A stretch of DNA of 61,768 nt, from the IMG/VR virus record IMGVR_UViG_3300023179_000112, positions 1 through 61,768 of that record. The stretch is one strand, 5' to 3'. Of this stretch, positions 6,055 to 54,341 are shown one piece after another. The stretch comes from a virus. Taxonomy: Duplodnaviria > Caudoviricetes. How positions within the stretch are numbered: the first letter of the stretch is position 1; every line of letters starts with the position of its first letter. A model generated the notes under the pieces. The model was not told where the DNA came from and made no database searches. It saw only the letters and a program-made list of their open reading frames with translations. A program made the translations under genes and the position numbers.

Positions 6055-6062
6055 GTTTGTTT

Positions 6063-6444: not shown

Positions 6445-6456
6445 AAAGGAAACACC

Positions 6457-6870: not shown

Positions 6871-6880
6871 TCACCAACAC

Positions 6881-6898
6881 GGGACGGAATTCCGTCCC
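6881..6898. repeat. 18-bp perfect palindrome copy 3
   Basis: GGGACGGAATTCCGTCCC. Confidence 0.95.
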
Positions 6899-6919
6899 AA
6901 CAACTTTAGGAGAAATACC

Positions 6920-7117: not shown

Positions 7118-7119
7118 TT

Positions 7120-7137
7120 GGGACGGAATTCCGTCCC
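7120..7137. repeat. 18-bp perfect palindrome copy 4
   Basis: GGGACGGAATTCCGTCCC. Confidence 0.95.
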
Positions 7138-7146
7138 GCTGTCAAC

Positions 7147-7532: not shown

Positions 7533-7571
7533 CTTTTGGTATTTAATAGCCCTTTTTGTCAAGGAGTAGAC

Positions 7572-8075: not shown

Positions 8076-8082
8076 CGCAACT

Positions 8083-8100
8083 GGGACGGAATTCCGTCCC
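8083..8100. repeat. 18-bp perfect palindrome copy 5
   Basis: GGGACGGAATTCCGTCCC. Confidence 0.95.
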
Positions 8101-8134
8101 ACATCTTTATGTCCTCATATTTTAAGGAAAAACT

Positions 8135-28351: not shown

Positions 28352-28535
28352 TATTGCTTTTCCGTGGGAGCATGTCCCACTAGGAGGCGGGTTTTTTGTC
28401 CCTACACTCAATCCACAACGTACTATAGAGAAAGCACATAGGGCAGCTATGACTGCCCGTGTGTTTCACTTCAAGAGCATACCCTGCATCATTAACGGGA
28501 AACTTGGCGTCTATTTTCAGCGGTTGCGGCGATGA
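28314..28535 (+). CDS. Small hypothetical protein
   Basis: FPWEHVPLGGGFFVP; last gene of the plus block, 3' overlap with giant gene. Confidence 0.55.
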   Translation: MQSESQSQKSRTDIAFPWEHVPLGGGFFVPTLNPQRTIEKAHRAAMTARVFHFKSIPCIINGKLGVYFQRLRR

Positions 28536-31500: not shown

Positions 31501-34500
31501 AAGCCCGCGCTCACCAAGAATAATATCAACGCCGTAATGACCAATTAGTTCGTGCGCAATAGTAGTTTCAAGATCAAGCATGTTGCCGTGGTTAACACCA
31601 ATAATAACAACGGTGCCATCCGGCATAACACCACCACGAACTTTTGCAGTTTCTTCATCCATACCTTGCTGCATGAGCGCACGGATAAAGTTTTTTGGCG
31701 CATCAAACAGTGTCTCAGCATAAACAAGCTTCACACCCTTTGGCAAATTAGCTTTGACCTGTTCAATTTTTTGCCGCGCTTCTTTAAGATCAACAACCGA
31801 GTCTGCAACTTCTTCAATACGAAAACTTGTAGGCCCAAGTGATGTTGGAAAAATAGCGGTGTTTTCAAACTCCTCAACATTTTGAGAAGTTGATGTAATA
31901 CCCGCTTGTGCATTACGTGCTGCCGCTGATTTAGCTCCGTTCTTAGCCCGTTTTTCTCTTTCAAGCGTATCAAGGTCTGGCGTTTTTTCCGTAGCCAAAC
32001 GCTGATCAGCGCCACCACCTTTTAAAGGTTTTAATCGCTGCGTTTTTAATTGTTCACCAACAACTTTAAGTTTTCCAGCAGGCGTTATTTCAGTTTGTTG
32101 CGTAGCATTTACGACGCGATAAATCTCAGGATCAGTTAATAAAACAACATCGCCTTGTAGCGTGGCAAGATCTTTACGTAGTTCTTTAATTTCGCCTTCT
32201 AACTTTGAGCGCCCTTTGGTGTCTTCTGATGGAGCGTTGCGTAACTCTTCACTACGCTTATCAATAAACAGTTGAATTTTTTCTTCAACCCCTTCATCAG
32301 ATACTTTATATTTTTTAGCAAGCCGCTCAACCGCAGCTTGATAGTTCTTTTCTATATTGCGCTGTTCTTTTAGCCACAAAGGTTCTTCTTTAATCAACAC
32401 AGTACGTTTGTCGGTATAGTCCTCTTGATAAATAGTTCCGCCACGAATTTCATTCAAACTTTCGTTTGACATATTATTAATATTTTTTTTCTCAATTGCT
32501 TCATTAACTCTTGTTTCAAGCGTAGATATTTGTGCTGTAATTTTTTCAATAGCTTTAGGATTAGACGTGTTTTCAAGTTGTTTATTAAGTTCTTTGATTT
32601 TTTTTCTGTACTCAATAATTGCTTTTTCATTAGCTTTTACAAAAGCATCTTGATTACGAATATCTTGAATTTGTTGTTCAACAGCCGCAATTTGTTGATT
32701 TATAATAGTAAGTCTGTCTGTTTTTGTTGTTCCAATTTTAACAAGCGTGTTATTTTTTTCAGCAATATTTCGTGCTTTTTTAAGCGCTTTTATGCGTATG
32801 TTTAATTCTGCTTCAGTAGATGTAACAGGCAATAAAACAGTAGCTTGTAGTTTAGGAGTCGTAACGCGGCGTGATGCAGGGATAATTTTGTAGCGATTAT
32901 TTATTGTGTAGAATGCTTCGTTAAGAGAAACAATACCGTCCATTGCCGCAAGGCGTGTTTCTTTTATTCGTTTGTTTCTATCAGCAGCGTCGGCTAATTC
33001 TTTACGCGCAGCTTCAAGTTGTGCAACGAGCGCACGTTGTTTATCTTGGGCAGACTGTTGATTTTTTTCTTCTCCAATATTTCTCTCAGCTTTAGGGTTT
33101 TGTTTAAGTTCAGCAAGCCGTTCTTTTAACTTGTCTAATTTTTGGCGTTCTTGTACAACACGTTCATCAAGTGCAGCTTTAAGACTTATCTCTTGTTCAG
33201 TTAATTCAACCGGACCTTTTTTTACAAACTCATTAAAAGCAATTTGTGCTTGGTGCATAATGGATAATGCATCACTATGGTCTGCTTCAAGCTTTTTAAG
33301 TTTTGTGTTTAGCAAAATAACAGATTCGGCGTATCCCTCTGCAACAACTCCTTCAGTGCCAGAAAGTTTGTTCTGGCTTTCTTCAAGCTGTTTTTTAGTA
33401 TTTTGAATTTGTTTTTCAAGTTGCTGCACTTGCTTTTCAAGAGGCGCAACATTGTTTTTAAGTTCATTAACACCTTTTACAAAATCTTCAATTTTAATGA
33501 CAATGCCGTTAAGCCCAGTGATAGAACGCCGAACTTCTGCAAGCGTTTGCAGCGTGATAGTTGTTTGATTTTGTACAGCTTCAGTAGCGTTGTTTATTAA
33601 AGACCGCAAACCTTCAACTTGCTGACCACGAAAAATATTTTTAATTCCATTAATAATACGACTTGAAGCTAAAAGAATTTCAGGAGTACTGCGAATAAAC
33701 ACACGAGGTTCTTCCTCAAACAATTCAAGTTGTTGTTCAAGCGATGTAACTTCTGTCTCGCGTTTGAGGAGTTCTTTAATCTTGGGTAACAGTTCAGCCT
33801 GTCCCAAGTTGTAGCGTATTGTTGGACCTGCGGGGGGTTTTGCCGCAGCAAGATCTTTTAGTTCAGTGCGCAGTTTTTCAATAGCTGCTTCACGTTCTTT
33901 AATTTGATCTGGCGTTATAAGTTTTGCGCGTTCTTCTGGCGTAATTGATTTTTGTAAAGCTTTTATACCGTCCGCAATATCCCTATCCAAAGCAGCGCGA
34001 GCTTCAAGAATTTCTTGCTGTTTGTCTTTTAGGTCTTGTCGGTTTTTATCGTACCAAGCACGGTTAGCCTGTTTTTGTTCTTTTGCGCTGCGAATAGGCA
34101 GTGAAGCAAAACGCGGCTTTTCAGCTTTTAAGTCAGGGTTATCTGTATCAAACGGCGTATCAAGACCGCTAACTATTCTGTTAACTTGTTCTAGTACGAC
34201 ATTTACTAATTCTTCAGACGGTTTGTCAATAGACTCAAATTGAGCAAGCGCTTGTTCAAGCTGGCTGTTAAGCCCCATGTTATTAGCGTTTAAACGAAGA
34301 CGCAGTGTTTCAAGTTCGTTTTTAATTGTTTGCTGTTTGGCTTCAAATGATGCAACTGCGCTCTGGTTGCGCAAGCGGTTTAATTCTTCAGATCCTGCAC
34401 GTAATGTAAATGCTTCTTCTTTTCTTGTACGCGGCCTTGCTTCAACTTTACTAAACTTGTCAGCAACTTCTTCAAGTTGGTCTTGAATAAGTGCAGTTGC

Positions 34501-37500
34501 CGTACGCGGATCAGCAAACGGACGCTCTTCAGTTTTACGTGTATCAAATGTAGGGGTAGTCAGTATGTCAACTACACGCGTTCTAGCAGGTGCTGCTAGT
34601 TGCTTTAAAAAAAAGTTAACGCGTTGACTAAACCGTTGCTGAAGCGTGTCTGTGTCTGCCCCAGGTCTTGTCATTGCGTTTGCAATAAGCTTAAGCTCGT
34701 TTTGTAAACGTGTAAGTTGTAAAAGATTTTTAGGATCTGCGACAACACGTTTCTCTGTTACCTGATCTAAGTTATCACGGATCTGTGCAAAGCTTAACGC
34801 CTGCATCCTGTTTGAGTACTCAGACAAAAGCTCTCGTGTTTGCTTTGTAATTTCGTCAACTTCTTGCTGGTTTAACCCTCGTTGCCCATTTGCATCACGA
34901 GCGTTTGCAATTTGTTGAAGCAGCGCATCAACGTAACGTTGTGTAATTTGTTCTGTCTTTTGTTCTCGTGTTTTAGCAAGCGGCAGTACAGATTCTGTTT
35001 CTTGAAGTTTGGCTAACTCTTTATCAATTTGACGAACAAGATCATCTCTGCCTTTACTCTTAGCCGCAGCCTTATATTTTTCCAACCTGTTAATACGTTT
35101 CTCAACGCCTAACGCAGTAGCAGGTCTTTTAAGGCGAGTAGCTGCATCAAGTGTGTAGTCAACAAAATCTTGAAACGCTTGATCTTTTAAAAACTTAGGA
35201 TCGTTAGTTGCAGCAAAGCGTTGCTCACGTAATTCTTCTAACTGTTTGTTAATATTAGCAAGCTGTTCTTCATCACGCGTTTCACGCGCATATTGCTTTT
35301 GTTTTTCAAGCGCGTTAATTCTGTCTTCAATATCAGAACGCGGGGCTGTAACTTTTGTTGGTGTTATAACGGGTTTTTCAGTTTTTTGAATTGCAGACGC
35401 CGCCAGCGCCCCCGCAATTCCTTCTTCTGTTTCGGGTTTTACTTCCGGTATTTCAAGATACTGCCGTAGTGTCTGAAGTTGTGCTTCACGACGTAAAGCA
35501 AGTAATCCTTGTTCGTTAAGTTGGCTTGAACCGTCAGGTTTTAAAAGATCTACGTCGTTAGTAAGAAGTGTTTTTTGTTGCGCTTCAAGGTTATTTATTC
35601 TGTCTTGAACAATAGAACGAATTGATACGTTTCCGGCAAGTTCGTTAACGTTGCGCCCGCCAACTATTCTAGAAAACGGCGTAACAGGTAGCCCCAATGC
35701 TTTAGCAATTGTTTTAGTGATGCGCCCTAACCCAAGGTTATATCCAAGGTCGGCTTCAATATCTGTTTCGTCTAATTGCTGTGCATCAGGCAACCCCAAC
35801 GCTTTTACCACCATACGGGGGTTTTCTAGTCTACGCGTTACAGTGTCAACTCCTGCTTCAAACCCTTCTAACTCAAGCTGTTGTTGACGTTGTGTGCCTG
35901 CATCTTTTCCTTGTTCTTTTAATTGCTTAATGTACTGAGCATCAGCTTCTTCAAGCTCATTAACGTATATTGTTGGAAAACCAAGCAACGTTGTATCTTG
36001 TTTTTGTTCAATTGCATACTCTTCAATTGAACTGTACAACGCTTTTAAAGCTGGGTTTTTCTTAAAATCGTTTTGAGCTTTTTTTATTTCAGCGTCAGTT
36101 AATGACAATCTAAGTTGCTCACGACGCCTTTCCTCTTCAATTTTAGCTTGTTCTTTTTCACGTTTATCAAATTCAGCTTGGCGTCTAGCAATCTCGTCTG
36201 CACGAAGTTTAGCTGTAAGTTCTTCGGTTTCTTTATCTTTAGCTTCTTGAGCAGCTTTTTGCCGTGCTTCTTCTTCAAGACGCTGATCATTTAAAGCGTT
36301 AGTATATGCGTGAAATGTTGGGTATTTTTTCTTTATTTTTCCGCCCATAACAGGATCGTTCCAGTCTTGAAGTGCACGACTAAGCAAAGCTTGCGGCATA
36401 CGCGCCATACGGTCGTAAGCTTCAGCTTGCTGGGCTGCAATATCTACTTCAGAACGTGGTTGATACAACCCCGGTACGATATTACCAAACTCGTCAACAA
36501 CAGGCCGACCTTTTGCTTCTTCTTGTTCTTTACGTTCGCGCATAATGTCAGCAAAAGTGCGCTGTGCTTGTGGAACGTTTTCTTTAATATCAGCCGCAAT
36601 TTCACGCATTCGCGCTTTAATTTCATCTATTCTTGCTTTAGCATCAAATTCTTGTTCTGGTGTTAATGCTTTACCAGATATAGCTTGTTGAATTTGAATT
36701 ATTTCATCGCGCAACGTAACGCGTTCTTGATTCAGAGCTTGAGCATACTCAGGTGTTTTCTTTAGTGCGGCTTCTTTCTCAGCGGCTTCTTGCTGCTGTT
36801 TTACTTTCTCTTGCTGAATCTTTTCACGTTCAAAACTACGCTCTTGATACTTTGCTGCTGCACCAAATGCAGGAGCAGCCAGAAATGTTTGATACGCTGC
36901 TTCACCATATTCTTTAAACGCATCGTCTGAGGTAAGAGACAGCCCCGCTTGCAGTCGTTCAAGCATAGACTGCGTAACTTCAGTAGGGACTTCAATAAGA
37001 GCAGCTTTTGCTGCACCTGTTGTAAGTGTGCGTTTTAAACTTGCATCTGCAACGGCTTTACCTGCGACAGTATTCAAAGCTTTTTCAGGTATACCAATTA
37101 ACTTACCTACTAACTGTTTGCCAAGAACAAACGCATCAGCAGCAGTCTCTAATCCAGCTTGTACGGCAGCGGCAGCGGCAGCATCGGCAGCATTAATAGT
37201 TTTACCTTCAGCCGCTTGACGTGAAAGGTTTGAACCAAACTCCCGCAAATACGAAGGCGCAAACTTACCAAGTGCTCCACCAACTGTAGCGCCAACCCCT
37301 ACACCAACCGGCCCAAACGGCGCTCCTGCCATCGCTCCTAGCCGTGCACCAGTGAACGCCCCACCCAAAGACACGCCAAGTTGCGGTATTTGCCCTGCTA
37401 TAGCTGACGGAGATTGGCTTAATAATTCTTTACCTGCACCAAACAGCCCTTCTTCAGCGTAACGCTTGCTTAATTGATCAAGCCCAACCTCGTTGGCATA

Positions 37501-37752
37501 ACGGGAAGCTATACTGCGTTCACGAAGCGCTGCATCCTTTGCAGCTTGTTCGGCATCAAACAGACCAGCAACACCAGCGCGTATTCCTGAAACAAGGGAT
37601 TCAGCGCCCTTACCAATAGCACCTGTTATGCCACCTGACTTTGGGTAAAGATCGGGAAACTTTTCCCGCAGAAATATTTCTGCTTCTTCTTTTGGCGTTG
37701 AGTCAGCAAACTTCGCCTGTCTTCCGTCAGGTAAGGTAAGAAAATAAGCCAT
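28492..37752 (-). CDS. Giant polyvalent internal virion/ejection protein with zincin-like domain and LPD38-like C-terminus
   Basis: 3086 aa; coiled-coil middle; AHELIGHYG; C-terminal PFLNAQIQG, IPIPFEVG, SPIQLDYLVRGYFG. Confidence 0.75.
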   Translation of the reverse strand: MAYFLTLPDGRQAKFADSTPKEEAEIFLREKFPDLYPKSGGITGAIGKGAESLVSGIRAGVAGLFDAEQAAKDAALRERSIASRYANEVGLDQLSKRYAEEGLFGAGKELLSQSPSAIAGQIPQLGVSLGGAFTGARLGAMAGAPFGPVGVGVGATVGGALGKFAPSYLREFGSNLSRQAAEGKTINAADAAAAAAVQAGLETAADAFVLGKQLVGKLIGIPEKALNTVAGKAVADASLKRTLTTGAAKAALIEVPTEVTQSMLERLQAGLSLTSDDAFKEYGEAAYQTFLAAPAFGAAAKYQERSFEREKIQQEKVKQQQEAAEKEAALKKTPEYAQALNQERVTLRDEIIQIQQAISGKALTPEQEFDAKARIDEIKARMREIAADIKENVPQAQRTFADIMRERKEQEEAKGRPVVDEFGNIVPGLYQPRSEVDIAAQQAEAYDRMARMPQALLSRALQDWNDPVMGGKIKKKYPTFHAYTNALNDQRLEEEARQKAAQEAKDKETEELTAKLRADEIARRQAEFDKREKEQAKIEEERRREQLRLSLTDAEIKKAQNDFKKNPALKALYSSIEEYAIEQKQDTTLLGFPTIYVNELEEADAQYIKQLKEQGKDAGTQRQQQLELEGFEAGVDTVTRRLENPRMVVKALGLPDAQQLDETDIEADLGYNLGLGRITKTIAKALGLPVTPFSRIVGGRNVNELAGNVSIRSIVQDRINNLEAQQKTLLTNDVDLLKPDGSSQLNEQGLLALRREAQLQTLRQYLEIPEVKPETEEGIAGALAASAIQKTEKPVITPTKVTAPRSDIEDRINALEKQKQYARETRDEEQLANINKQLEELREQRFAATNDPKFLKDQAFQDFVDYTLDAATRLKRPATALGVEKRINRLEKYKAAAKSKGRDDLVRQIDKELAKLQETESVLPLAKTREQKTEQITQRYVDALLQQIANARDANGQRGLNQQEVDEITKQTRELLSEYSNRMQALSFAQIRDNLDQVTEKRVVADPKNLLQLTRLQNELKLIANAMTRPGADTDTLQQRFSQRVNFFLKQLAAPARTRVVDILTTPTFDTRKTEERPFADPRTATALIQDQLEEVADKFSKVEARPRTRKEEAFTLRAGSEELNRLRNQSAVASFEAKQQTIKNELETLRLRLNANNMGLNSQLEQALAQFESIDKPSEELVNVVLEQVNRIVSGLDTPFDTDNPDLKAEKPRFASLPIRSAKEQKQANRAWYDKNRQDLKDKQQEILEARAALDRDIADGIKALQKSITPEERAKLITPDQIKEREAAIEKLRTELKDLAAAKPPAGPTIRYNLGQAELLPKIKELLKRETEVTSLEQQLELFEEEPRVFIRSTPEILLASSRIINGIKNIFRGQQVEGLRSLINNATEAVQNQTTITLQTLAEVRRSITGLNGIVIKIEDFVKGVNELKNNVAPLEKQVQQLEKQIQNTKKQLEESQNKLSGTEGVVAEGYAESVILLNTKLKKLEADHSDALSIMHQAQIAFNEFVKKGPVELTEQEISLKAALDERVVQERQKLDKLKERLAELKQNPKAERNIGEEKNQQSAQDKQRALVAQLEAARKELADAADRNKRIKETRLAAMDGIVSLNEAFYTINNRYKIIPASRRVTTPKLQATVLLPVTSTEAELNIRIKALKKARNIAEKNNTLVKIGTTKTDRLTIINQQIAAVEQQIQDIRNQDAFVKANEKAIIEYRKKIKELNKQLENTSNPKAIEKITAQISTLETRVNEAIEKKNINNMSNESLNEIRGGTIYQEDYTDKRTVLIKEEPLWLKEQRNIEKNYQAAVERLAKKYKVSDEGVEEKIQLFIDKRSEELRNAPSEDTKGRSKLEGEIKELRKDLATLQGDVVLLTDPEIYRVVNATQQTEITPAGKLKVVGEQLKTQRLKPLKGGGADQRLATEKTPDLDTLEREKRAKNGAKSAAARNAQAGITSTSQNVEEFENTAIFPTSLGPTSFRIEEVADSVVDLKEARQKIEQVKANLPKGVKLVYAETLFDAPKNFIRALMQQGMDEETAKVRGGVMPDGTVVIIGVNHGNMLDLETTIAHELIGHYGVDIILGERGLDDLVFRVDSQPGGVIGLAKEMGVHDEVYGTILNLQRVGTSIIGQQRAAIRELIAHVEEARATESTVAAVKRFVQEMIGALRQVLRDVLGLGRYSALKPADIYYLLSRSRRVIKSGTPGAYRDADGQVVFRRSKDAFPSNMPANYATVINQITGSPPSTFDKIFGGNTGMTFRTKYIDRFDPLERIAAQMKDSLAATQMMSYLRMHDQRNNFTAEVVNNGALILEKKKRADGREEFIVRSGGTVSLKDVAAALKEVPDMGVDSANKMFTSWMAAIRAERVGLDTLNFDPSVKLSDLVGLKRYVESQPEIKKAFDKARTLYNEYNRNLVKFAVQTGAISKIDEDRLLRTNDYIPFYRVQNGTVQLMLGGEISPIRIGNLKDQPYLDQLVGGNTKILDFFTSSVQNTNMFVDFAMRNLATKNVAYTLRSLGTSAMPVAKIGKGDGPAGANVIRFKERGEPMYAVIDTETLGVPADLLVKGLEGVSATIPQVVKLFNIPSRVLRLFITRNPLYAFRQLFRDSMSAALTTGGNFTPVLSSLKELRKMRQGKSESEKELRERGVLGGQVFTGTSEDLSLILRDIASGKEGWATKLAKLDTLAIQGDASTRVVLYNSFIKQGMSEMEATLATLESMNFNRRGLSPSVMMLSMMVPFLNAQIQGLDVLYRSGFAGKMPFDQQLKVRKKFWTRGMMLAGMTVLYAAMMQDDEAYKNANPDEKYNNFFVYIPGFSEPFRIPIPFEVGVLFKALPEMIVHLADGKAEVGQVFPALKSILGNTMPGLIPQAIKPALEVATNYSFFSGRGIESEREEALIPSQRMRSNTSEVAKMLSSLTSFTVGGKEYGLSPIQLDYLVRGYFGPLGLAISSMGNTVLEKPGKADPEMRASDMPIVGGLFQPRDAQGLINYAYQVVSNIEQRQRTYKELTRRGDASDVQEFVKENRQILGLASSAGSFRQQMGEYAQMERDVRERKDMSPQQKRETLDRIRQARIGYAQKFIAATAENRRQVSR

Positions 37753-44573: not shown

Positions 44574-45212
44574 TTATTCAATCCCGGACACAAAAGTGGC
44601 AGTCAGTATGACCGATGGTATCGCAGGTCGGGTTGGAGAGGAAGGGGCTGTGTAGCTTTCAATTCTAGCACTTGTGTTTGTTGTGCACCAGTACAGTTGC
44701 AGGTAGTCGTTAGCTGTCATATCAACAATAAAGTTAAGTGCAGCAACGGTATGGTATGGGTCTCCCGGATTCTTACGGGCTGCTAAACCGAATCGGCTAT
44801 TGGAATTGGCAATGTCTGTGCCGTTTTTTCTAAACCATATGTCAATATCTTGTGGGGCGTTAGTATCATTAGTTAATTGGATACTAAACTGTATATTGTA
44901 GTAACCGGGATAAGTTACATAGATTTGAGAACTGCTTTGAACTCCCACCCCACTTGATATAGCCGTAGAATTAAAAGTTATGGGGTATGCTACTGTCGTT
45001 GAAGCAGCGGTTTGATCCGTTGTATCGTAAAAAGATCCAAGGGGCAATTGAACATATTGCCCACCGTAAGAACCAAACAGCGAAAGTAAATTGTTATTTA
45101 GTCGGTTGAAGTAAAGGCGTAGGACGTTATTAAATTGTTCCTGATAGCGCGAGTCATACTGCCCCGGCGCAAGGGGTAGGTTAGGTGAAGCAGGATGATT
45201 TATAAGACTCAT
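44574..45212 (-). CDS. Tail-associated protein (C1q/TNF-like beta domain)
   Basis: LRLYFN helix; GYYNIQFSIQ, IWFRKNG, PAIPSVI. Confidence 0.55.
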   Translation of the reverse strand: MSLINHPASPNLPLAPGQYDSRYQEQFNNVLRLYFNRLNNNLLSLFGSYGGQYVQLPLGSFYDTTDQTAASTTVAYPITFNSTAISSGVGVQSSSQIYVTYPGYYNIQFSIQLTNDTNAPQDIDIWFRKNGTDIANSNSRFGLAARKNPGDPYHTVAALNFIVDMTANDYLQLYWCTTNTSARIESYTAPSSPTRPAIPSVILTATFVSGIE

Positions 45213-47266
45213 CGCCGCCCATCCGGCCTAATATCAATTCGCGGTGAACCAAGTTGCCAAGTCGTGCCTAAACCATCAGATGATATTTCAATAATCATTT
45301 GCCGACCACGAATGCGCGTGTAGATTATATTAGTAAACTGTTCAATAACCGCTGTTGACGTTCTGGCAACTGCTTTAGCTGCCTCCGTATTAAACCCCGA
45401 ACCTGACCCATTCATACCATACATAGTCATCGTAACTTGCGGTGTAGCGGCTGTTGATCCTTGAAATGTTAGATCTGGCACCATGCGCCATACAAACCCA
45501 AAATGCTCACCGTCGTCAATATCAAATTCTGCTGATTCGATATAAGCTTCTATAGGTACTGGAGTTCCCGAAGTATTGTCATCAATTCCGTATTCGTGGT
45601 TTACTAAATTATTAACATAAGTTGCAGCTACTGGATAATCCCTCAATCCTGAATCAAGCCAAGCAGTACGCGCTAAAGAACCGTAATACCATATATCTTC
45701 GACGTAGTTATAGACAACATACGCATCAATTACCGTAGAATTTGCGGTGCAATAAAACCACCATACTTCATTAAACGCTTCAATAGTGCCAGAAAATATT
45801 TGTTGGTTTTGATTTAAATTAATATTACCAAATACATGTCTACGAAGATCACAACGAAGTGTTTGCACTCGTCCGTCGTACACATAAAACTTATCAACAC
45901 CCATCCAGAATATACGACCAGACGCGATTGACACAGCGTTTTGGCTAAATATAGAAATATTGTCGCCTAGCAATTGCGAAGACCATACTATTGGGGGGCC
46001 AACATATTGAAGCGAATAAATTGAAGAATCTGTAAATACAACAATTTCTTGTCGTGTTTGAATGGCTGCAATAATTTGTGAGCCATGTGAAAGCCTAATA
46101 GACCCTGCTTGATTTAACGGAGAAGGTGTCCAATCAATAACGGATTCTTGATTAGACCAACGAATTAACATGGGGTCTAGCGTAACAGATGCATAATCTG
46201 TAGTGCCAAACAAAAGAACAAATCGAGAAGTATCTGATACAAGAATATAATTTTGCAAGGTTGGTACATCGACTAAAGTAGAAATACTTTGAACGCCAGA
46301 TTGTGAACCTGATGTGTTTATTATTGCCCCCGCAGGTGTGGCTGAAAGGTTAGCTGTTACCCCATCAACGTTGCGTAAATAATAAGTTGTACCCGCAGTC
46401 AATCCTGTCGGCAGTGCGCTTGTAGTAGCAAGTTTAATTGCAGTACCTTCTACAAGTACAACCGATAATGTAATAACACAGGGGGATGCTATAGTTAATG
46501 TTACCGTACCACCTAACGTATTGACATTGACGCCTCTTGTTGAAACACCGTTTGTTGCATCCCAATAATATAACCCCCCTCCGCGAGGGCCAAAAATAAG
46601 ATCTTCCCCCCAATTATTGGCTGACCATAAGCGTATATCAATTGTGGTACTAACCCCATTACCCCATGTACCAAAACCCCAACCACCCGCACCCCAACCA
46701 AAATATGGAACTTGTATAGCTGGCCCTGTATTTATTTGATAAGTGGCAACAACGGCTGAACCGCCTGTAGCGCCAGCCGCTACAACAGAAGCAGTAGTAA
46801 TTGAATAGGAGTTTACATTAATGATTGTGATTTGATATTCGGCATTAAGAAGCGTTGCATACGTTCCCGTTGTTCCGCTAAAGGTAACAAAATCCCCTGT
46901 AATTGCTCCATGAGAATTATCAGTTACTACAACCGTAGTGGTTCCGTCGCCTGTAAAAGGATCAGCACCAAGGGTAACTGTGGATCGAATGGGGGTTATA
47001 TCATAATACGAATCGTCTCGCTCAATATAATATTTTAAATTAGTTCCAACGCCAAGTAAATTTTGGAACGAGAGCGTTATCCAGTTCCATAGCGAACGGC
47101 AAATACCAAGAAAAGTACTAGCAGAGATACGCGACCAACCACCAATTTTTTCAGGGGTTCCTTGACGAAACCGTACTTTGTCAGAAATATACCAGCCGTT
47201 TTCACTTGTGTACCGAGTATTTTCTTTGTTTACTCCGGGCTTAAATGATATTTTTTTAAGTGGCAC
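45209..47266 (-). CDS. Tail nozzle / packaged-DNA stabilisation protein (P22 gp10 / tubular B-like)
   Basis: KVRFRQG.PEKIGGW, IRWSNQE, FNEVWWFY, RIRGRQ; propeller-like. Confidence 0.6.
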   Translation of the reverse strand: MPLKKISFKPGVNKENTRYTSENGWYISDKVRFRQGTPEKIGGWSRISASTFLGICRSLWNWITLSFQNLLGVGTNLKYYIERDDSYYDITPIRSTVTLGADPFTGDGTTTVVVTDNSHGAITGDFVTFSGTTGTYATLLNAEYQITIINVNSYSITTASVVAAGATGGSAVVATYQINTGPAIQVPYFGWGAGGWGFGTWGNGVSTTIDIRLWSANNWGEDLIFGPRGGGLYYWDATNGVSTRGVNVNTLGGTVTLTIASPCVITLSVVLVEGTAIKLATTSALPTGLTAGTTYYLRNVDGVTANLSATPAGAIINTSGSQSGVQSISTLVDVPTLQNYILVSDTSRFVLLFGTTDYASVTLDPMLIRWSNQESVIDWTPSPLNQAGSIRLSHGSQIIAAIQTRQEIVVFTDSSIYSLQYVGPPIVWSSQLLGDNISIFSQNAVSIASGRIFWMGVDKFYVYDGRVQTLRCDLRRHVFGNINLNQNQQIFSGTIEAFNEVWWFYCTANSTVIDAYVVYNYVEDIWYYGSLARTAWLDSGLRDYPVAATYVNNLVNHEYGIDDNTSGTPVPIEAYIESAEFDIDDGEHFGFVWRMVPDLTFQGSTAATPQVTMTMYGMNGSGSGFNTEAAKAVARTSTAVIEQFTNIIYTRIRGRQMIIEISSDGLGTTWQLGSPRIDIRPDGRR

Positions 47267-47740: not shown

Positions 47741-48222
47741 GACTTTTGATATTTCTCTATGCTACGTCCAACAAACCAAAACGTGAGCACCATCGTAAAA
47801 AGACCAAAATCGTTTTCGTTCCAGTTGGCTTTTAAAACTTCGTACCACGGTGCATCCGATAAGAACGCCATATAGATAGCGCAAGCTTTAACGGCTGCAT
47901 ACATACCGAACAAGCACCATGTAATCCCCGGACGAACAAGTGCCGAGATTGCAGATACGAACCATCCTGCTGACTTTGCAGTTTCTGATTGCTCACGAAA
48001 AGCCTCTTTAATTGCGTCTAATTGGGTAATACTATAGTCAACGTACTTTTCTTCAACCTTAAACTCACCACGAAGCCTTTCAAGATCCGTTTGTAAGCGG
48101 AACATATTCAACTCATGCTTGCGCTCGTTGGCTTTGTCTAGGAATTTAAGAATTTCCGGCGCGAGTCGAAACAAGCCACCAAAGAGCGACCCTAACAAAC
48201 CTCCTGACAGAAGATCAAACAT
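47737..48222 (-). CDS. Putative holin (3-TM, GTA-holin-like)
   Basis: Hydrophobic helices, KHEL, ALVRP.IT, FWFVGR; coupled to endolysin. Confidence 0.7.
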   Translation of the reverse strand: MFDLLSGGLLGSLFGGLFRLAPEILKFLDKANERKHELNMFRLQTDLERLRGEFKVEEKYVDYSITQLDAIKEAFREQSETAKSAGWFVSAISALVRPGITWCLFGMYAAVKACAIYMAFLSDAPWYEVLKANWNENDFGLFTMVLTFWFVGRSIEKYQKS

Positions 48223-48941
48223 TATTTAGAGGGGGGTATTGTTGTGGGATTTACGATCACCGGATTGACAACTACGGGGTTTACAACCTTGGGTTCAACA
48301 ATCGTTGGATCAACAACAAACGGTTCGATCTTGATGACTTCAGGTTTCACAACAACCACCTTCTCTTGCGTTACCACCTGCGTCGGGTTGTAAGTCGTCG
48401 TTACATTAGCCGCTGGTGCTTGGATCTTACCCGCAATATTAATAAACGCAGCACTTGTGCTTTGCGTATTCGCTACTGACGCCGCCGCTGCGTTGGTGTT
48501 TGCGGTGTTGGAGATTGATGTAAAAGCATTATTAGTGCTTGCAGTGTTGGATACTGAAGCGTTGCTTTGTGATTGCTGAATAGCAACATTACCTCTGACC
48601 TGCTCCATACCCAAGGCAACTTGCCGGTTGATGCCATAAATCTGGGCAATCGACGGAAGGATGGCTGCAATAGCCTGTAAGGTCGTGTCAGCAGGTGAAC
48701 GAGGTGGTGTAATCTGCTGTTGGTTTTGCTGGTTTGGTTGACCCAAAGCCATTGACATCACCGCAGCAACTTTCGCAGCAGCATCGCCTGTCGAGGCAAT
48801 AGCTGCCATTGCTTTATACTTTTCGGTGTCTGCCTTTGCTTTTGCTTCGGCAACTTTGATGTTTGCCTCAACATAAGCATCGTAGTTTGTAGCGCAGCCT
48901 GCCAAAAGCAGGGGCGCAAGAATAATTAACTTTTTCATCAT
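48222..48941 (-). CDS. Lipoprotein upstream of holin
   Basis: Signal MKKLIILAPLLLAG-C lipobox; AGGAG RBS. Confidence 0.7.
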   Translation of the reverse strand: MMKKLIILAPLLLAGCATNYDAYVEANIKVAEAKAKADTEKYKAMAAIASTGDAAAKVAAVMSMALGQPNQQNQQQITPPRSPADTTLQAIAAILPSIAQIYGINRQVALGMEQVRGNVAIQQSQSNASVSNTASTNNAFTSISNTANTNAAAASVANTQSTSAAFINIAGKIQAPAANVTTTYNPTQVVTQEKVVVVKPEVIKIEPFVVDPTIVEPKVVNPVVVNPVIVNPTTIPPSK

Positions 48942-48953: not shown

Positions 48954-49796
48954 TTACTGCAACCCCATCGCTTGACGGATTTTAGTTGCCGAGATTGAAT
49001 GAGTAGCATCATCAAAAGTTTCTTGCTCAATCTTGTAGCCCACATCGCGGCCATAGGTGATGTTCACGATATTAGGTACTAACTGTATCTCATATTGCCC
49101 CTGAAAGAGCGGATCAAGGTCTCGTCTAATAAATTCCTTAACCTGTTCGGCAGCAAAGGGATTAGACCCATTCCAGCCTTGACAATCACGGATCTGGATC
49201 ACTACCTGACCTGTCTTGGCAATCGCACGCTCAAACAATTTTCTATGCCCCGGATGCCAAGGTTGCCAGCGACCAAGCATCTGCACTGTTTCTTTTTTCC
49301 AATCAAACCGTGGGCGACGGCGGTCTTGCAAAATGTGGTCGGCTATAAAGTCAGACCATTTATCAGCGTCTTTCTCGGTAATACGAAAGTCGTAAACATC
49401 AGGCGGCACAAAAGCCTTGTTGGTATCTTCGTACCGACCAGCATCAATGGTATCCATCCAGATAACCCAGTCGGCCTTAAAGTTATGACGCATCTCAGGA
49501 AGCGGTGCCACAAAGTCGCAAATGACATAATCAGCATTTGATGAGAGTGCAAACTCAGCCATCCTTAGAGACTGCCGAATCCGTCCTTCACGGCTAAAAT
49601 CCCAGTCGTTGTATCTCTTGCGGACTTCATCGGCATTGAACCACTTGACGGTTGGATGCCAATAAGTTGGCACAGCTTCGCACTGTGCAAGCTTTTCTAA
49701 TGGGATATCTGTGCTGGCCTCCAAGCGCTTTTTAAGGGCTTCGGCCATAAAGGTTTTGCCTGCTCCGGGCAGTCCCATAATAAGGATTTTTTTCAT
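48954..49796 (-). CDS. APS kinase (CysC-like) fused to HxGH nucleotidyltransferase domain
   Basis: P-loop GLPGAGKT, NADEVR, WDFSREGRIRQ, DFVAP; C-terminal MLGRWQPWHPGH, YGRDVGY, ISATKIR; ATGA overlap with sulfotransferase. Confidence 0.8.
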   Translation of the reverse strand: MKKILIMGLPGAGKTFMAEALKKRLEASTDIPLEKLAQCEAVPTYWHPTVKWFNADEVRKRYNDWDFSREGRIRQSLRMAEFALSSNADYVICDFVAPLPEMRHNFKADWVIWMDTIDAGRYEDTNKAFVPPDVYDFRITEKDADKWSDFIADHILQDRRRPRFDWKKETVQMLGRWQPWHPGHRKLFERAIAKTGQVVIQIRDCQGWNGSNPFAAEQVKEFIRRDLDPLFQGQYEIQLVPNIVNITYGRDVGYKIEQETFDDATHSISATKIRQAMGLQ

Positions 49797-50614
49797 ACAA
49801 CCACTTTCATTCTGTATTGCTCCGTAAACTTTGGTTTTGCCGGACGCCAAAATTCTTTGCCAGAATATTTATCCCAAACCGATTTAGGTAAAATTGAACG
49901 ACGTTCTTCCCAAGTTACTTTACGCCGTACTGTGTGCAGACTTTTCATGTTTAACGCACGATCAAACACTTCATTCTCGTATTCTACGTTATCAAAGTCA
50001 TGGTTAAAGTAAGGTTTGTTAATAAACCCATAAATCTTACGCATGGTGTCTTCAGGATCTCTACACAAACCTTCATACTCCATCAAAAAGATCATGTCTG
50101 AATTGAGCAACAGACCCTCCTCTAAGAAGTAGTATGGCTTGACAACTTGACCTTCTTTTTTAACATCCATCAACGCGTCACATCTGGTTGTCACGGTCTG
50201 CCGCGCTTCATCGTCAGTAAGTGTTGCGCCGTACAGACTGTTTTTTACGGTAATCCGCTCAAAAGAATCCAAAATCCACGGCAAATCTCGAACGCAACAG
50301 ATAATTTTTGTTTGCGGATAAAGATCTTTGAGTAGGGCTGTTTTAGCAGTCCAACCACGACTTGTATCAAATACAACCGAATTGTTGACAGCCTTGTAAT
50401 ACGCCTCAAACGTATCGCGCAAAATCTGTTTGCGACGATCTTCATCAATGAGATGATTGTTCTCACTGCCCGTTATGACGTTAATTGTCGAGGTTACTAA
50501 ACCTTGCATCGGGGAGGAGATGTCCGCATAAAACTCTGGGTTTTGACGCAAAATGCCTGAAAGCAGCGTTGAACCAGAGCGCGGTAGGCCAGAGATGAAT
50601 AAAAACTCTTTCAC
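49793..50614 (-). CDS. Sulfotransferase family protein
   Basis: PAPS-binding FISGLPRSGSTLL, KIICCVRD..ILDS, YE.L..P; GTGA overlap with upstream gene. Confidence 0.85.
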   Translation of the reverse strand: MKEFLFISGLPRSGSTLLSGILRQNPEFYADISSPMQGLVTSTINVITGSENNHLIDEDRRKQILRDTFEAYYKAVNNSVVFDTSRGWTAKTALLKDLYPQTKIICCVRDLPWILDSFERITVKNSLYGATLTDDEARQTVTTRCDALMDVKKEGQVVKPYYFLEEGLLLNSDMIFLMEYEGLCRDPEDTMRKIYGFINKPYFNHDFDNVEYENEVFDRALNMKSLHTVRRKVTWEERRSILPKSVWDKYSGKEFWRPAKPKFTEQYRMKVVV

Positions 50615-51033
50615 ATCGGAACCCAAGAAACAGTTTGCTCATCCCACTTGTAGCGCACGTTGCCACCGTTCATGACTGCATCCTCCGGGAGGGGAATTGG
50701 AGGAACCCACTCTCCACTGTCTTCATCCCACAACCACGAAGGATATGGGCGACGAGCCTCATACTCGGCTTGTTTAAGTTGAAAATAATAAGATTCCGAT
50801 AAAACCTGAAGAACACCTGCAATAGACGTATCAGCATCGTCATCACAAGTACCATAGTACAAAGGTGCTCGAAGATAAGTGCCGTCTGGCGCAAGCTCCA
50901 CAGGCCATGTGGACCTGTTCGCCCACTCAAATTTAAAACCTTTGACTACGGGCATTGACGGACCGGTGCGTTGCGGCTCTTGAGTGCAAGGAATTTTTGT
51001 GATGACATCAACTTCAGTTACGCAGATGTACAT
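50611..51033 (-). CDS. Tail-fiber-associated protein (chaperone-like)
   Basis: PYPSW..W..W.PP.P.P..Y.WDE motif; follows adhesin gene. Confidence 0.55.
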   Translation of the reverse strand: MYICVTEVDVITKIPCTQEPQRTGPSMPVVKGFKFEWANRSTWPVELAPDGTYLRAPLYYGTCDDDADTSIAGVLQVLSESYYFQLKQAEYEARRPYPSWLWDEDSGEWVPPIPLPEDAVMNGGNVRYKWDEQTVSWVPM

Positions 51034-53390: not shown

Positions 53391-54341
53391 TTACTCCGTT
53401 TCTACCAATTGCCATTGGACGTTTTCATCTGTGGGAATAAGGCTCCAGTATAAAACACCAAGAGTACCAACATTACCCGAAGCACTAACTCCGCTAAAAG
53501 AAATTACGTTAGGGAAACTTTGAATAGCACCTGTGGAATTTACACCTGTTAGCGCTTCGCTACGTACTACTGTTAAAGACTGAACTGCCCCGGAAGCACT
53601 TACACCTGATAAAGTGGGGCCATGCCCAACTATTACATTACCTACATCTCCAGCAGATGAAACCCCGGACAAACTAACTGTAATTGTAACGCTAGCTGAT
53701 CCCGTTTGTCCACTAGCTTGTACTCCCGTAATAGGGGCAGGTATAGTAAAAACTACGTTACCGACAGCGCCGGAAGCGGCTACACCAGTAAGCTCAGCAG
53801 CGTAAGAAAAATTAGTGTTGCCAACCGCCCCAGTGGAAAGAACACCAGAAAGAGTTGGGGATGTGGTAGAGATGACGTTGCCTACTAAACCATCAGCAGC
53901 AACGCCGGAAAGAGGTACAGCTATAATTAAATTAACAGAGCCAACATTCCCCGTGGCAACTACACCATCTTCAACAGGGTTTATTTCTCCAGTTACATCA
54001 CCAACTGCACCTGTAGTCCCAACACCTGTCAAAGAAATTTGACGTTCACCAACTGCTACATTTCCAACTGCGCCTGTGGCATCAACACCTTGAAGTTGGA
54101 AATTAAATACAACACCACCCACCGCACCAGACGCAGCAACGCCTGTCAGTGCAACCGTAATGGTTAAACCAACAGACCCAACTGCGCCAGTAGCGACTAC
54201 GCCATCTTCAGTGGGAGAGTTAGTTTCAGTAACAGACCCTACATTACCGGACGCAGAAACACCCGATAACGCGGCTTCTACACCAACGCCACCCCAACCA
54301 TCGTAGCCCCACGGGTTTGAACCCCAGCCAAAATTAGCCAC
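53391..54341 (-). CDS. Tail/virion protein with ~20-aa GV.A.GAVG repeats
   Basis: Repeated (L)SGV.ASG.VG units; GWG N-terminus. Confidence 0.6.
   Translation of the reverse strand: MANFGWGSNPWGYDGWGGVGVEAALSGVSASGNVGSVTETNSPTEDGVVATGAVGSVGLTITVALTGVAASGAVGGVVFNFQLQGVDATGAVGNVAVGERQISLTGVGTTGAVGDVTGEINPVEDGVVATGNVGSVNLIIAVPLSGVAADGLVGNVISTTSPTLSGVLSTGAVGNTNFSYAAELTGVAASGAVGNVVFTIPAPITGVQASGQTGSASVTITVSLSGVSSAGDVGNVIVGHGPTLSGVSASGAVQSLTVVRSEALTGVNSTGAIQSFPNVISFSGVSASGNVGTLGVLYWSLIPTDENVQWQLVETE

What the first reader, a model, noticed from the sequence alone, without database searches (positions are those of the whole stretch)
48954..50614. Self-contained sulfation module (sulfotransferase plus possible mini PAPS synthase) inside the tail operon
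Seen: a sulfotransferase (GLPRSGST PAPS loop) coupled by ATGA overlap to a 280-aa fusion of a CysC-like kinase and an HxGH nucleotidyltransferase (GRWQPWHPGH); both are coupled to the adhesin-partner gene and precede the lysis cassette. Established: PAPS synthesis needs ATP sulfurylase (HxxH nucleotidyltransferase fold) plus APS kinase. The motif here looks more NadM/cytidylyltransferase-like than Sat-like, so sulfurylase activity is inference. No glycosyltransferase is in the window, so the acceptor could be Thr/Ser/Tyr-rich tail proteins, a host surface receptor (exclusion) or DNA. This points to a modification system rather than a sulfur-assimilation auxiliary gene.
Basis: partly seen in the sequence, partly recalled or inferred. 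Interest (0 to 1): 0.75.

Follow-up and report, generated by a model that had tools for sequence, protein, structure and literature searches.

The report
Phage sulfotransferase with compact PAPS synthase
A phage carries a sulfotransferase joined to a small two-domain enzyme that most likely makes the activated sulfate donor PAPS on its own, and its second domain looks like a previously unrecognised kind of ATP sulfurylase that also sits in the sulfite-oxidation operon of SAR11 bacteria.

Summary
On the minus strand, a PAPS-type sulfotransferase (49793-50614) overlaps by ATGA a 280-aa fusion (48954-49796). The fusion holds a shortened APS-kinase-like domain and a 115-aa HxGH/ISATxIR nucleotidyltransferase (NT). 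Both lie between tail-fibre-like genes and the lysis genes of a 61.8-kb, 96%-complete phage.

The kinase half is APS-kinase-like by Pfam, PDB profile and fold. By sequence the NT half is nearest archaeal NMN adenylyltransferases, not Sat. Three lines of context nevertheless tie it to APS:
- The same NT is fused, in the opposite order, to a canonical full-length CysC in an abundant marine family.
- The fusion lies beside sulfotransferases of two unrelated Pfam groups in 34 of 40 and 25 of 46 well-flanked viral loci.
- A standalone NT, 57% identical to the phage's, sits as NT-membrane protein-aprB-aprA-tauE in SAR11 genomes. Of 151 such genomes, 80 have AprB, 6 have Sat and 78 of the 80 have this family.

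Best reading (about 0.6): a self-contained PAPS synthase with a non-canonical ATP sulfurylase feeds a phage sulfotransferase. The acceptor is unknown, and no activity has been shown. I found no description in print. I rate it a new variant of a known kind, of high interest.

The parts
49793..50614 (-). PAPS-dependent sulfotransferase, 273 aa from the GTG start (alternative TTG start at 50626)
   Evidence: Pfam Sulfotransfer_3 1.9e-16 and Sulfotransfer_1 6.6e-9. phrog_27463 4.4e-49. The profile of 25 homologues is closest to protein-tyrosine sulfotransferases (6e-17) and the CurM sulfotransferase. The 5'-PSB loop (G9, R12, G14, T16) and R109/S117 are nearly invariant or invariant.
49317..49796 (-). 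N-terminal domain of the fusion (residues 1-160): a shortened APS-kinase-like P-loop kinase
   Evidence: PF01583 at 26.8 bits, above its cut-off of 21.1. In the A1 profile search of the PDB, 16 of the 17 best hits are APS kinases, at 1.4e-15 to 4.4e-12. The top Foldseek hits of the AF2 model (pLDDT 91.9) are APS kinases. G8, G13, K14, R59 and F67 are invariant and D56 and R72 nearly so. The KGLYKKAR lid seen in the canonical CysC of P0232 has no counterpart.
48957..49301 (-). C-terminal domain of the fusion (residues 166-280): a minimal HxGH / ISATxIR nucleotidyltransferase, proposed non-canonical ATP sulfurylase
   Evidence: GRWQPWHPGH, YGRDVGY and SISATKIR are read and are nearly invariant in 59 sequences. 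The AF2 model has pLDDT 93. VIA Z-scores are PPAT 9.5, NMNAT 9.2 and ATP sulfurylase 1v47 8.4, which is a tie. It is 47% identical to the NT of P0232, which is fused to a canonical CysC. It is 57% identical to the standalone NT in a SAR11 aprBA operon.
49793..49796 (-). ATGA overlap of the sulfotransferase stop and the fusion start
   Evidence: Read directly from the sequence. The same 4-nt overlap between the fusion and a Sulfotransfer_2 gene is seen in other phage loci, for example L207 at 4709-5542 / 5539-6126.
50611..50614 (-). GTGA overlap of the upstream 140-aa ORF stop and the sulfotransferase GTG start
   Evidence: Read directly from the sequence.
50611..51033 (-). 140-aa ORF upstream; it travels with this sulfotransferase subtype and is a possible partner or substrate (uncertain)
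   Evidence: phrog_7759 at 8.7e-7 and no Pfam family. It was found with the sulfotransferase in 5 of 80 related loci; the ST is 98% identical in L004 and 81-82% in the other four. Its function was not tested.

Best explanation
The two genes form a self-contained sulfation module, expressed with the late tail and lysis genes.

Proposed mechanism:
1. The C-terminal nucleotidyltransferase (NT) of the 280-aa fusion adenylylates sulfate (ATP + sulfate -> APS + PPi).
2. The N-terminal trimmed APS-kinase domain phosphorylates the 3'-OH of APS to give PAPS. This pulls the unfavourable first step, as in animal PAPS synthase, which has the same domain order.
3. The translationally coupled sulfotransferase passes the sulfate from PAPS to an acceptor. 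The acceptor is still unknown: a protein tyrosine on a virion or fibre protein, or an envelope or virion glycan.

Shown: the domain identities, the conservation of the catalytic motifs, the gene coupling and the genomic associations.

Inferred: all three enzyme activities, the direction of the NT reaction, and the acceptor.
For: Kinase domain:
- It passes the Pfam APS_kinase cut-off.
- In the profile search of the PDB, 16 of the 17 best hits are APS kinases, at 1.4e-15 to 4.4e-12. The top Foldseek hits are APS kinases too.
- The P-loop, D56-x-x-R59, F67-S and R72 are invariant or nearly so in 48 sequences.

NT domain:
- HxGH and ISATxIR are nearly invariant, which argues for catalysis.

Link 1, fusion to CysC:
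- P0232 (311 aa) has the same NT (47% identical over 113 aa) in front of a full canonical CysC (PF01583 5.7e-63, profile positions 2-151).
- All 120 listed homologues of P0232 cover 92-100% of it at 63-100% identity.
- Kinase-NT, NT-kinase and split adjacent genes all occur.

Link 2, sulfotransferases nearby:
- With adequate flanks, an ST lies in 34 of 40 close viral loci, 25 of 46 more distant viral loci and 13 of 47 bacterial loci.
- These STs belong to Sulfotransfer_1/3 and to Sulfotransfer_2. They fall into 36 clusters at 50% identity, and 27 of them abut the kinase/NT gene.
- For scale, PF13469 rings in 3 of 14 and PF03567 in 0 of 14 whole control genomes.

Link 3, the SAR11 apr operon:
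- In 151 Pelagibacteraceae genomes, AprB is in 80, Sat in 6 and this family in 103. It is in 78 of the 80 AprB-positive genomes, and in 74 of the 76 that have AprB but no Sat.
- In at least 30 genomes the NT lies within 4 kb of aprB on the same contig and strand (read).
- In L249 the order is NT, a 263-aa multi-pass membrane protein, AprB, AprA, a 116-aa ORF, then TauE. This is the place sat holds in sat-aprMBA (abstract of PMC3779200).
- Papers state that SAR11 lacks sat (passages in PMC5069961 and PMC10356861).

NAD and CoA are already served in SAR11:
- The 5 SAR11 genomes searched each hold two full-length CTP_transf_like proteins, of 167 aa and 171-192 aa, besides the NT. By size I take them to be CoaD and NadD.

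Sulfotransferase:
- Both PAPS-binding motifs are conserved.
Against: - No biochemical evidence exists for any step.
- By sequence the NT is nearest archaeal NMNAT and NadM. hhalign against a natural SAR11 Sat gives 2.5% probability and aligns only the ISxTxIR stretch.
- Fold searches tie PPAT, NMNAT and ATP sulfurylase, so the fold does not decide.
- The kinase lacks the lid segment of canonical CysC. It also reads N-A-D where human PAPSS1 has D87-G-D89, and D87A abolishes that enzyme's kinase activity (abstract of PMC8528679).
- Many loci show no detectable ST: 21 of 46 distant viral loci, 34 of 47 bacterial loci, and 0 of 3 neighbourhoods of Sano-type and DLP_6 phages. The whole Sano genome has none at E<=0.01 for PF13469 or PF03567.
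- In the three larger SAR11 genomes examined (of the 1.3-1.5 Mb class), the split kinase and NT genes sit beside a Rieske oxygenase and an enoyl-CoA hydratase. A GcvT-type gene (one locus) and a CoA-binding gene (another locus) lie nearby, not sulfur genes.
- AprBA can itself make APS, so in SAR11 the NT is not strictly needed to supply the kinase.
- The AprB association (Fisher p about 8e-18) is not corrected for shared ancestry.
Confidence: 0.6

Rival explanations
1. Only the kinase is a sulfur enzyme. The host supplies APS (through CysDN, Sat or AprBA), the fusion's kinase turns it into PAPS for the sulfotransferase, and the NT domain is regulatory, structural, or acts on something else.
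For: - The APS-kinase signal is the stronger of the two.
- Degenerate partner domains exist in this enzyme class; for example 3cr8 is titled 'Hexameric APS kinase' yet carries a sulfurylase-like domain.
- Three Ralstonia phage records match only the kinase half.
- The NT has no sequence signal for Sat.
Against: - The catalytic HxGH and ISATxIR motifs are nearly invariant.
- The NT also occurs alone, without any kinase, inside aprBA operons of SAR11 genomes that lack sat. There it cannot be a regulator of a fused kinase.
- It is fused independently, in both orders, to kinases.
Confidence: 0.17
2. The fusion is a NAD-salvage enzyme: a nucleoside kinase plus an NMN adenylyltransferase, a permuted NadR-like arrangement. 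It would rebuild NAD+ during infection, and its place beside the sulfotransferase would be incidental.
For: - The best sequence matches of the NT are NMNAT and NadM: NF002243 at 6.7e-7, 2qjt at 2.7e-4 and 1f9a at 2.4e-11.
- One database source names a homologue 'nicotinamide riboside kinase'.
- In Sano-type phages the gene sits beside a COG3236/NADAR-type gene and MazG.
Against: - All NCBIfam NMNAT scores are far below their cut-offs, at 26-29 bits against 127-181.
- The domain stops right after ISATxIR. It aligns to residues 1-135 of the 164-residue 1f9a chain.
- The kinase matches APS kinases, not NadR kinases. The NadR kinase entry 6gye appears only at 1.5e-3 through its P-loop.
- The NT is fused to a canonical CysC, associated with sulfotransferases, and sits in the aprBA operon.
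Confidence: 0.08
3. The fusion is a CoA-synthase-like pair: phosphopantetheine adenylyltransferase plus a 3'-kinase acting on dephospho-CoA, or it makes another 3'-phospho-ADP-X cofactor.
For: - PPAT is the top fold match of the NT (Foldseek 5o08 at 6.9e-3; VIA 4nah at Z 9.5).
- Some sources name homologues 'phosphopantetheine adenylyltransferase'.
- The two-step chemistry, adenylyl transfer followed by 3'-phosphorylation, is the same.
- In larger SAR11 genomes the split genes lie near enoyl-CoA hydratase and CoA-binding genes.
Against: - The kinase profile finds APS kinases at 1e-15. No dephospho-CoA kinase is among the 60 best PDB hits shown, out of 188 at E<=0.1.
- The fold matches are tied and weak.
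- SAR11 genomes already carry a 167-aa full-length CTP_transf_like protein of CoaD size.
- The sulfotransferase and aprBA contexts point to sulfate.
Confidence: 0.05

Closest known systems
Bifunctional PAPS synthase (animal PAPSS1/2; Aquifex Sat-CysC fusion, PDB 2gks)
   Same: Two steps on one chain: an HxxH-type adenylyltransferase and an APS kinase. The window's order (kinase, then transferase) is that of human PAPSS1, where the profile's kinase part aligns to residues 55-143 and the NT model to residues 410-597. The order in P0232 is that of 2gks. The kinase domains are homologous.
   Different: The transferase here is about 115 aa and nearest to NMNAT. It gave no Pfam hit to ATP-sulfurylase PF01747 and is not alignable to a natural Sat beyond ISxTxIR. 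The kinase lacks the lid segment. The whole protein is 280 aa; the human PAPSS1 chain is 630 aa and the 2gks chain 546 aa.
Sat-type ATP sulfurylase in sat-aprMBA operons of sulfur oxidisers
   Same: In SAR11 the standalone NT holds the same operon position: NT, a membrane protein, AprB, AprA (operon from the abstract of PMC3779200). It belongs to the same HxxH nucleotidyltransferase fold class (VIA 1v47 at Z 8.4, 114 residues aligned).
   Different: It is not a member of the Sat family by sequence, is a third of the size, and has no PUA-like or other extra domains. Its activity is untested.
Archaeal NMN adenylyltransferase / NadM (PDB 1f9a, 2qjt)
   Same: The GRxQPxHxGH and SxTxIR motifs, the best sequence similarity, and the fold (Z 9.2).
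   Different: Scores are far below the family cut-offs. The domain ends just after the second motif. It has a conserved YGRDVGY loop and is always tied to APS enzymes.
Phage and cyanophage sulfotransferases (S-SKS1, S-SRM01; OM43-phage genomes)
   Same: Sulfotransfer_3-type genes, 28-31% identical to the window's. A 2023 paper says their function in phages is unclear (passage in PMC10580990).
   Different: In the window and its relatives the sulfotransferase is coupled to its own putative donor-synthesis gene. I did not check whether those cyanophage records also carry the fusion; none appeared among the 15 phage records that matched the fusion.
Protein-tyrosine sulfotransferases (TPST1/2) and the CurM sulfotransferase
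   Same: They are the closest solved relatives of the sulfotransferase profile, at 6e-17 to 4e-13 over about 200 residues that include both PAPS motifs.
   Different: Identity is low. The match is mostly the PAPS-binding core, so it does not fix the acceptor.

Membership tests
APS kinase (CysC, Pfam PF01583) | Score above the curated family cut-off | tested here: met
   26.8 bits against a cut-off of 21.1. The NCBIfam APS-kinase models are far below their cut-offs, at 28.7 bits against 127.
APS kinase (CysC, Pfam PF01583) | P-loop plus the D-G-D-N and L-G-F-S..D-R substrate and Mg motifs (motif definitions partly recalled; DGDN from the abstract of PMC8528679) | tested here: inconclusive
   GLPGAGKT, DWDFSREGR and DFVAP align to the canonical motifs. 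The first Asp of DGDN is Asn (FNADE) in the window, and N or D across the family.
APS kinase (CysC, Pfam PF01583) | C-terminal lid segment (KGLYKKAR ... FTGIxxPY, as seen in P0232) | tested here: not met
   Only profile positions 35-93 of 152 match. The family has a shorter RYEDTNKAFVPP stretch instead.
APS kinase (CysC, Pfam PF01583) | APS 3'-phosphorylation activity | not testable with these tools
   Needs an enzyme assay.
Sat-type ATP sulfurylase (Pfam PF01747) | Sequence membership (family HMM; QxRNPxHxxH and GRDHAG motifs, recalled) | tested here: not met
   PF01747 is not among the Pfam hits. hhalign of the NT profile against a natural SAR11 Sat gives 2.5% probability. Only PxHxxH, GRD and ISxTxIR resemble it.
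Sat-type ATP sulfurylase (Pfam PF01747) | Shared HxxH nucleotidyltransferase fold | tested here: met
   VIA gives 1v47 at Z 8.4 with 114 residues aligned, and 1r6x, 1j70 and 4maf at Z 6.0. PPAT and NMNAT score as high, so this shows the fold class only.
Archaeal NMN adenylyltransferase (TIGR01527 / NF002243) | Score above the curated cut-off and a full-length match | tested here: not met
   26.0 and 29.1 bits against cut-offs of 181.2 and 127; only profile positions 4-69 match.
Archaeal NMN adenylyltransferase (TIGR01527 / NF002243) | GRFQPxHxGH and SxTxIR motifs | tested here: met
   GRWQPWHPGH and SISATKIR.
PAPS-dependent sulfotransferase (Pfam PF13469 / PF00685) | Family score above the cut-off | tested here: met
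   61.4 bits against 27, and 36 bits against 22.
PAPS-dependent sulfotransferase (Pfam PF13469 / PF00685) | 5'-phosphosulfate-binding loop and 3'-phosphate-binding R-x7-S (motif definitions recalled) | tested here: met
   GLPRSGST and R109-x7-S117. R109 and S117 are invariant, and G9, R12, G14 and T16 nearly so, in 25 homologues. These stretches align to TPST.
PAPS-dependent sulfotransferase (Pfam PF13469 / PF00685) | Sulfate transfer from PAPS to a defined acceptor | not testable with these tools
   Needs an assay and mass spectrometry.

The most novel reading that the evidence does not exclude
The 115-aa NMNAT-like domain founds a third, so far unrecognised class of ATP sulfurylase, beside Sat and CysDN. 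As a standalone gene in NT-aprM-aprBA-tauE operons it would be the 'missing sat' of SAR11 and complete AMP-dependent sulfite oxidation in one of the ocean's most abundant bacteria. Fused to a trimmed or a canonical APS kinase it would be a widespread miniature PAPS synthase. Many aquatic phages would have adopted it to sulfate virion or host-surface molecules without relying on host sulfate activation.
Probability: 0.5. Interest if true: 0.9.

Novelty: new variant of a known kind. Interest (0 to 1): 0.78.

Why it matters
- Phage sulfotransferases are noted in print as having no known role (passage in PMC10580990). A coupled donor-synthesis gene makes them a testable modification system and shows the module is common: 592 of 599 pattern-matching stretches in the viral contig collection encode a relative of the fusion.
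- If the small domain is an ATP sulfurylase, it adds a new enzyme class to sulfate activation.
- It would also give a direct candidate for a gap in SAR11 sulfur metabolism that papers state openly: AprBA is present but sat is absent (passages in PMC5069961 and PMC10356861).
- A 280-aa PAPS synthase would be a handy tool for enzymatic sulfation.

Tried and rejected
- blastn of the module against the phage collection gave no match.
- NCBIfam gave nothing above any cut-off.
- Foldseek on the whole model saw only the kinase. Foldseek on the NT alone gave no match at E<=0.001. VIA-align tied PPAT, NMNAT, NadR and ATP sulfurylase within about 1 Z. The fold therefore cannot decide the substrate.
- hhalign of the NT profile against a natural Sat found no relation beyond one motif.
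- My first sulfotransferase HMM missed the Sulfotransfer_2 family next to the fusion. Pfam on recurrent neighbours revealed it, and I recounted.
- I first took the phage for N4-like because of the 3086-aa ORF and dropped that idea. The 685-aa protein matches HTVC023P/027P-type pelagiphages and DSL-LC04 at 31-37%, and Pfam shows SU10 adaptor domains. The large ORF itself was not analysed.
- Bacterial neighbourhoods are heterogeneous.
- PF01507 hits in SAR11 are short, weak matches in 523-524-aa ORFs, at 26-34 bits. I do not read them as CysD.
- Seven literature searches found no description of this fusion or of an NMNAT-like ATP sulfurylase. Supplements could not be read, and subscription journals are not covered.
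- No complex prediction, read mapping or protein-atlas search was run.
Full report
**The object.** The window is a whole virus record of 61,768 bases, estimated 96% complete.

On the minus strand, between tail-fibre-like ORFs and the lysis genes, lie three coupled genes:
- a 140-aa ORF (50611-51033);
- a sulfotransferase (49793-50614 from a GTG that overlaps the preceding stop as GTGA; a TTG at 50626 is also possible);
- a 280-aa ORF (48954-49796) whose ATG overlaps the sulfotransferase stop as ATGA.

The fibre-like ORFs upstream are a 316-aa repeat protein, a 371-aa ORF and a 404-aa fn3 + Lcl_C protein. Downstream come a 239-aa lipoprotein, a holin-like protein (phrog_6637 and phrog_3427) and a Phage_lysozyme.

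No glycosyltransferase family reached E<=1e-6 in 45 other window ORFs. The 3086-aa ORF was not scanned.

**The sulfotransferase.**
- It matches Sulfotransfer_3 (1.9e-16, 61.4 bits) and Sulfotransfer_1.
- In an alignment with 24 homologues from related loci, R109 and S117 (VRDLPWILDS, the R-x7-S 3'-phosphate motif as I recall it) are invariant. The GLPRSGST loop is nearly so.
- The profile is closest to protein-tyrosine sulfotransferases (6e-17 to 2.7e-13) and to the CurM and related polyketide sulfotransferases (about 1e-13), then to cytosolic SULTs.

It is thus a PAPS-type enzyme. The match is mostly the donor-binding core, so the acceptor stays open.

**The kinase half of the fusion.**
- Residues 1-160 pass the Pfam APS_kinase cut-off (26.8 against 21.1 bits).
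- A profile of 48 diverse full-length family members finds APS kinases as 16 of its 17 best PDB hits, at 1.4e-15 to 4.4e-12.
- The AlphaFold model (pLDDT 91.9) has APS kinases as its top Foldseek hits.
- The P-loop, D56-x-x-R59, F67-S and R72 are invariant or nearly so. They align with LDGDNxR...LGFSxxDR of canonical enzymes.

Two departures count against it:
- The lid segment seen in canonical CysC (KGLYKKAR in P0232) is missing.
- The first Asp of D-G-D-N is Asn in the window. D87A abolishes kinase activity in human PAPSS1 (abstract of PMC8528679).

**The transferase half (NT).**
- Residues 166-280 carry GRWQPWHPGH, YGRDVGY and SISATKIR, all nearly invariant in 59 sequences.
The scores are far under the family cut-offs, at 26-29 bits against 127-181.
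- The domain model (pLDDT 93) gives no Foldseek match at E<=0.001.
- VIA-align gives PPAT Z 9.5, NMNAT 9.2, NadM 9.2/9.1, NadR 8.5 and ATP sulfurylase 1v47 Z 8.4 with the longest alignment among the eight best rows, 114 residues. By the tool's own standard this is a tie.
- hhalign against a natural Sat taken from a SAR11 genome aligns only the ISxTxIR stretch, at 2.5% probability.

So it is not a member of the Sat family. Sequence and fold alone cannot name its substrate.

**Context 1: fusion partners.**
- The family is very large. 7651 of 8000 scored candidates match at E<=1e-3, and there are 2008 representatives at the 50% identity level.
- Among these, P0232 (311 aa) carries the same NT at its N-terminus (47% identical to the window's over 113 aa). 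A complete canonical CysC follows it (PF01583 5.7e-63, covering profile positions 2-151).
- All 120 listed homologues of P0232 cover 92-100% of it at 63-100% identity, and many come from ocean surveys.
- P0194 has NT followed by the short kinase. In viral and bacterial loci I also found split, adjacent or overlapping kinase and NT genes.

The NT has therefore been joined to APS kinases more than once and in both orders. That is the pattern expected for two consecutive steps.

**Context 2: sulfotransferases.** I searched 80 viral loci carrying close relatives of the fusion (73-99% identical), 78 viral loci reached through P0232 and 80 bacterial loci.

| Set of loci (at least 4 kb upstream, 2 kb downstream) | Loci with a sulfotransferase |
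|---|---|
| Close viral | 34 of 40 |
| Distant viral | 25 of 46 (16 Sulfotransfer_1/3-like, 9 Sulfotransfer_2-like) |
| Bacterial | 13 of 47 |
| Isolate-phage neighbourhoods | 0 of 3 |

- The Sulfotransfer_2 group was found only after Pfam on recurrent neighbours. It often overlaps the fusion's stop by 4 nt.
- The sulfotransferases fall into 36 clusters at 50% identity, and 27 abut the kinase/NT gene.
- The fusion is far better conserved than the sulfotransferase beside it, at 73-99% against 23-98% identity. This fits a constant donor-maker serving variable acceptor enzymes.
- Other recurrent neighbours in the close loci are glycosyltransferase family 25, a DXD glycosyltransferase, an FkbM/RfbT-like methyltransferase, a cytidylyltransferase-cupin protein and RCC1-repeat proteins. 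An NAD-dependent sugar epimerase/dehydratase recurs in the distant loci. Together these point to glycan work.
- Among isolate phages, DLP_6 has an annotated sulfotransferase elsewhere in its genome. Sano has none detectable.

**Context 3: SAR11.** The bacterial loci included many Pelagibacteraceae.

In 151 genomes of that family (for the cross-tabulation):

| Feature | Genomes of 151 |
|---|---|
| Fusion-family profile, E<=1e-10 | 103 |
| AprB, PF12139 | 80 |
| Sat, PF01747 | 6 |
| AprB-positive that also have the family | 78 of 80 |
| AprB-positive, Sat-negative that have the family | 74 of 76 |

- Fisher's test gives p about 8e-18, not corrected for phylogeny.
- Reading the coordinates together, in at least 30 genomes the NT lies within 4 kb of aprB on the same contig and strand. 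It is usually standalone there. Seventeen matches were not listed, so this is a lower bound.
- I fetched four such regions.
- In L249, Pfam gives this order: MFS transporter, TenA-like protein, a 405-aa protein, the NT (126 aa), a 263-aa protein with no family but several hydrophobic spans, AprB, AprA, a 116-aa ORF, then a TauE/SafE sulfite exporter.
- That NT is 57% identical to the window's domain over 115 aa (7e-42).
- In Allochromatium vinosum sat is co-transcribed with aprMBA (abstract of PMC3779200, seen).
- Papers say that SAR11 has AprBA but lacks sat (passage in PMC5069961; 'most SAR11 lack ATP sulfurylase', passage in PMC10356861).
- Table 3 of PMC5069961, as shown in the passage, lists 'cysC' and aprA in the same five strains.
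- The five SAR11 genomes tested each have two further full-length CTP_transf_like proteins, of 167 aa and 171-192 aa. By size I take them to be CoaD and NadD, so the NT is not needed for CoA or NAD.
- The three larger SAR11 genomes I examined give a caution. There the split kinase and NT genes sit by a Rieske oxygenase and an enoyl-CoA hydratase, with a GcvT-type gene (one locus) and a CoA-binding gene (another locus) nearby, not by apr.

**Reading.** The simplest account of all three contexts is that the NT interconverts ATP + sulfate and APS + PPi.
- In SAR11 apr operons it would run towards ATP and sulfate.
- Fused to a kinase it would run towards APS and on to PAPS.

In the phage this gives a sulfation module that does not depend on the host's sulfate activation, read through with the late genes. 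I put this at about 0.6.

The main rival (0.17) is that only the kinase matters and the host supplies APS. NAD-salvage (0.08) and CoA-like (0.05) readings fit the sequence and fold neighbours, but not the fusion to CysC, the sulfotransferase linkage or the apr operon.

The acceptor cannot be named. The nearness to TPST and the position among fibre genes allow tyrosine sulfation of a virion protein. The glycan genes in sister loci allow sulfation of a surface or virion glycan.

**Novelty.**
- Bifunctional PAPS synthases and phage sulfotransferases are both known.
- A 280-aa PAPS synthase built on an NMNAT-like transferase, and that transferase as a stand-in for sat, are not described in the library I could search. 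Supplements and subscription-only papers were not seen.
- PHROGs calls the family 'kinase' (phrog_10255). Database sources name its members inconsistently: hypothetical protein, phosphopantetheine adenylyltransferase, adenylylsulfate kinase, nicotinamide riboside kinase, GTPase.

Nothing here is shown biochemically. The assays listed under next steps would settle it quickly.

Noticed in passing
L249 (G028:C7:24500-33500) 3119-8257; also L248, L250, L251: SAR11 genomes carry the standalone mini-transferase directly upstream of a membrane protein, aprB, aprA and a TauE/SafE sulfite exporter. This is the place sat usually holds, in a lineage reported to lack sat.
   Followed up: partly
L245 6211-6992; L246 5791-6572; L247 5767-6548: In larger SAR11 genomes the kinase and transferase are two overlapping 135-aa genes. 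They are flanked by a Rieske ring-hydroxylating oxygenase and an enoyl-CoA hydratase, with a HalD-like, a GcvT-type (L245) or a CoA-binding (L246) gene nearby. Their role there is unexplained.
   Followed up: partly
window 28492-37752 (-): A single 3086-aa ORF at the downstream end of the minus-strand late-gene block, after the structural genes. It was not analysed. I first assumed an N4-like virion RNA polymerase but did not test that.
   Followed up: no
window 53391-54341 (-): A 316-aa ORF made of many repeats of a G-x-V-G / TGV-x-A-x-G-A-V-G-like unit, upstream of the fibre-like genes.
   Followed up: no
window 48222-48941 (-): A 239-aa ORF with a lipoprotein-type start (LLLAGC) and a Pro/Val-rich C-terminus, between the fusion and the holin-like gene. 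It has no family match, and its position suggests a spanin-like lysis protein.
   Followed up: no
L001 (Xylella phage Sano) 4559-5732; L003 (Bacata) 4559-5735: In Sano/Salvo-type phages the fusion homologue (33-39% identical) sits in the early region after a COG3236/NADAR-type gene and near MazG and a 'cysteine dioxygenase'. No clear sulfotransferase is in the genome, so its role there may differ.
   Followed up: partly
L243 (Stenotrophomonas phage DLP_6) 2224-2838: DLP_6 encodes a Sulfotransfer_2-type sulfotransferase about 90 kb away from its kinase-transferase fusion.
   Followed up: partly
L244 (G003:C1:132800-134800) 734-1804 (-): One of the few SAR11 genomes with a canonical Sat (356 aa, with HRAH, GRDHAG and ISGTKIR). 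That genome also has the fused kinase-transferase but showed no AprB match.
   Followed up: no
window 45209-47266 (-) and elsewhere in the window: The 685-aa protein matches HTVC023P/HTVC027P pelagiphages, phage DSL-LC04 and Planktothrix phages at 31-37% identity. Two window ORFs carry SU10 adaptor domains. The host is unknown.
   Followed up: partly
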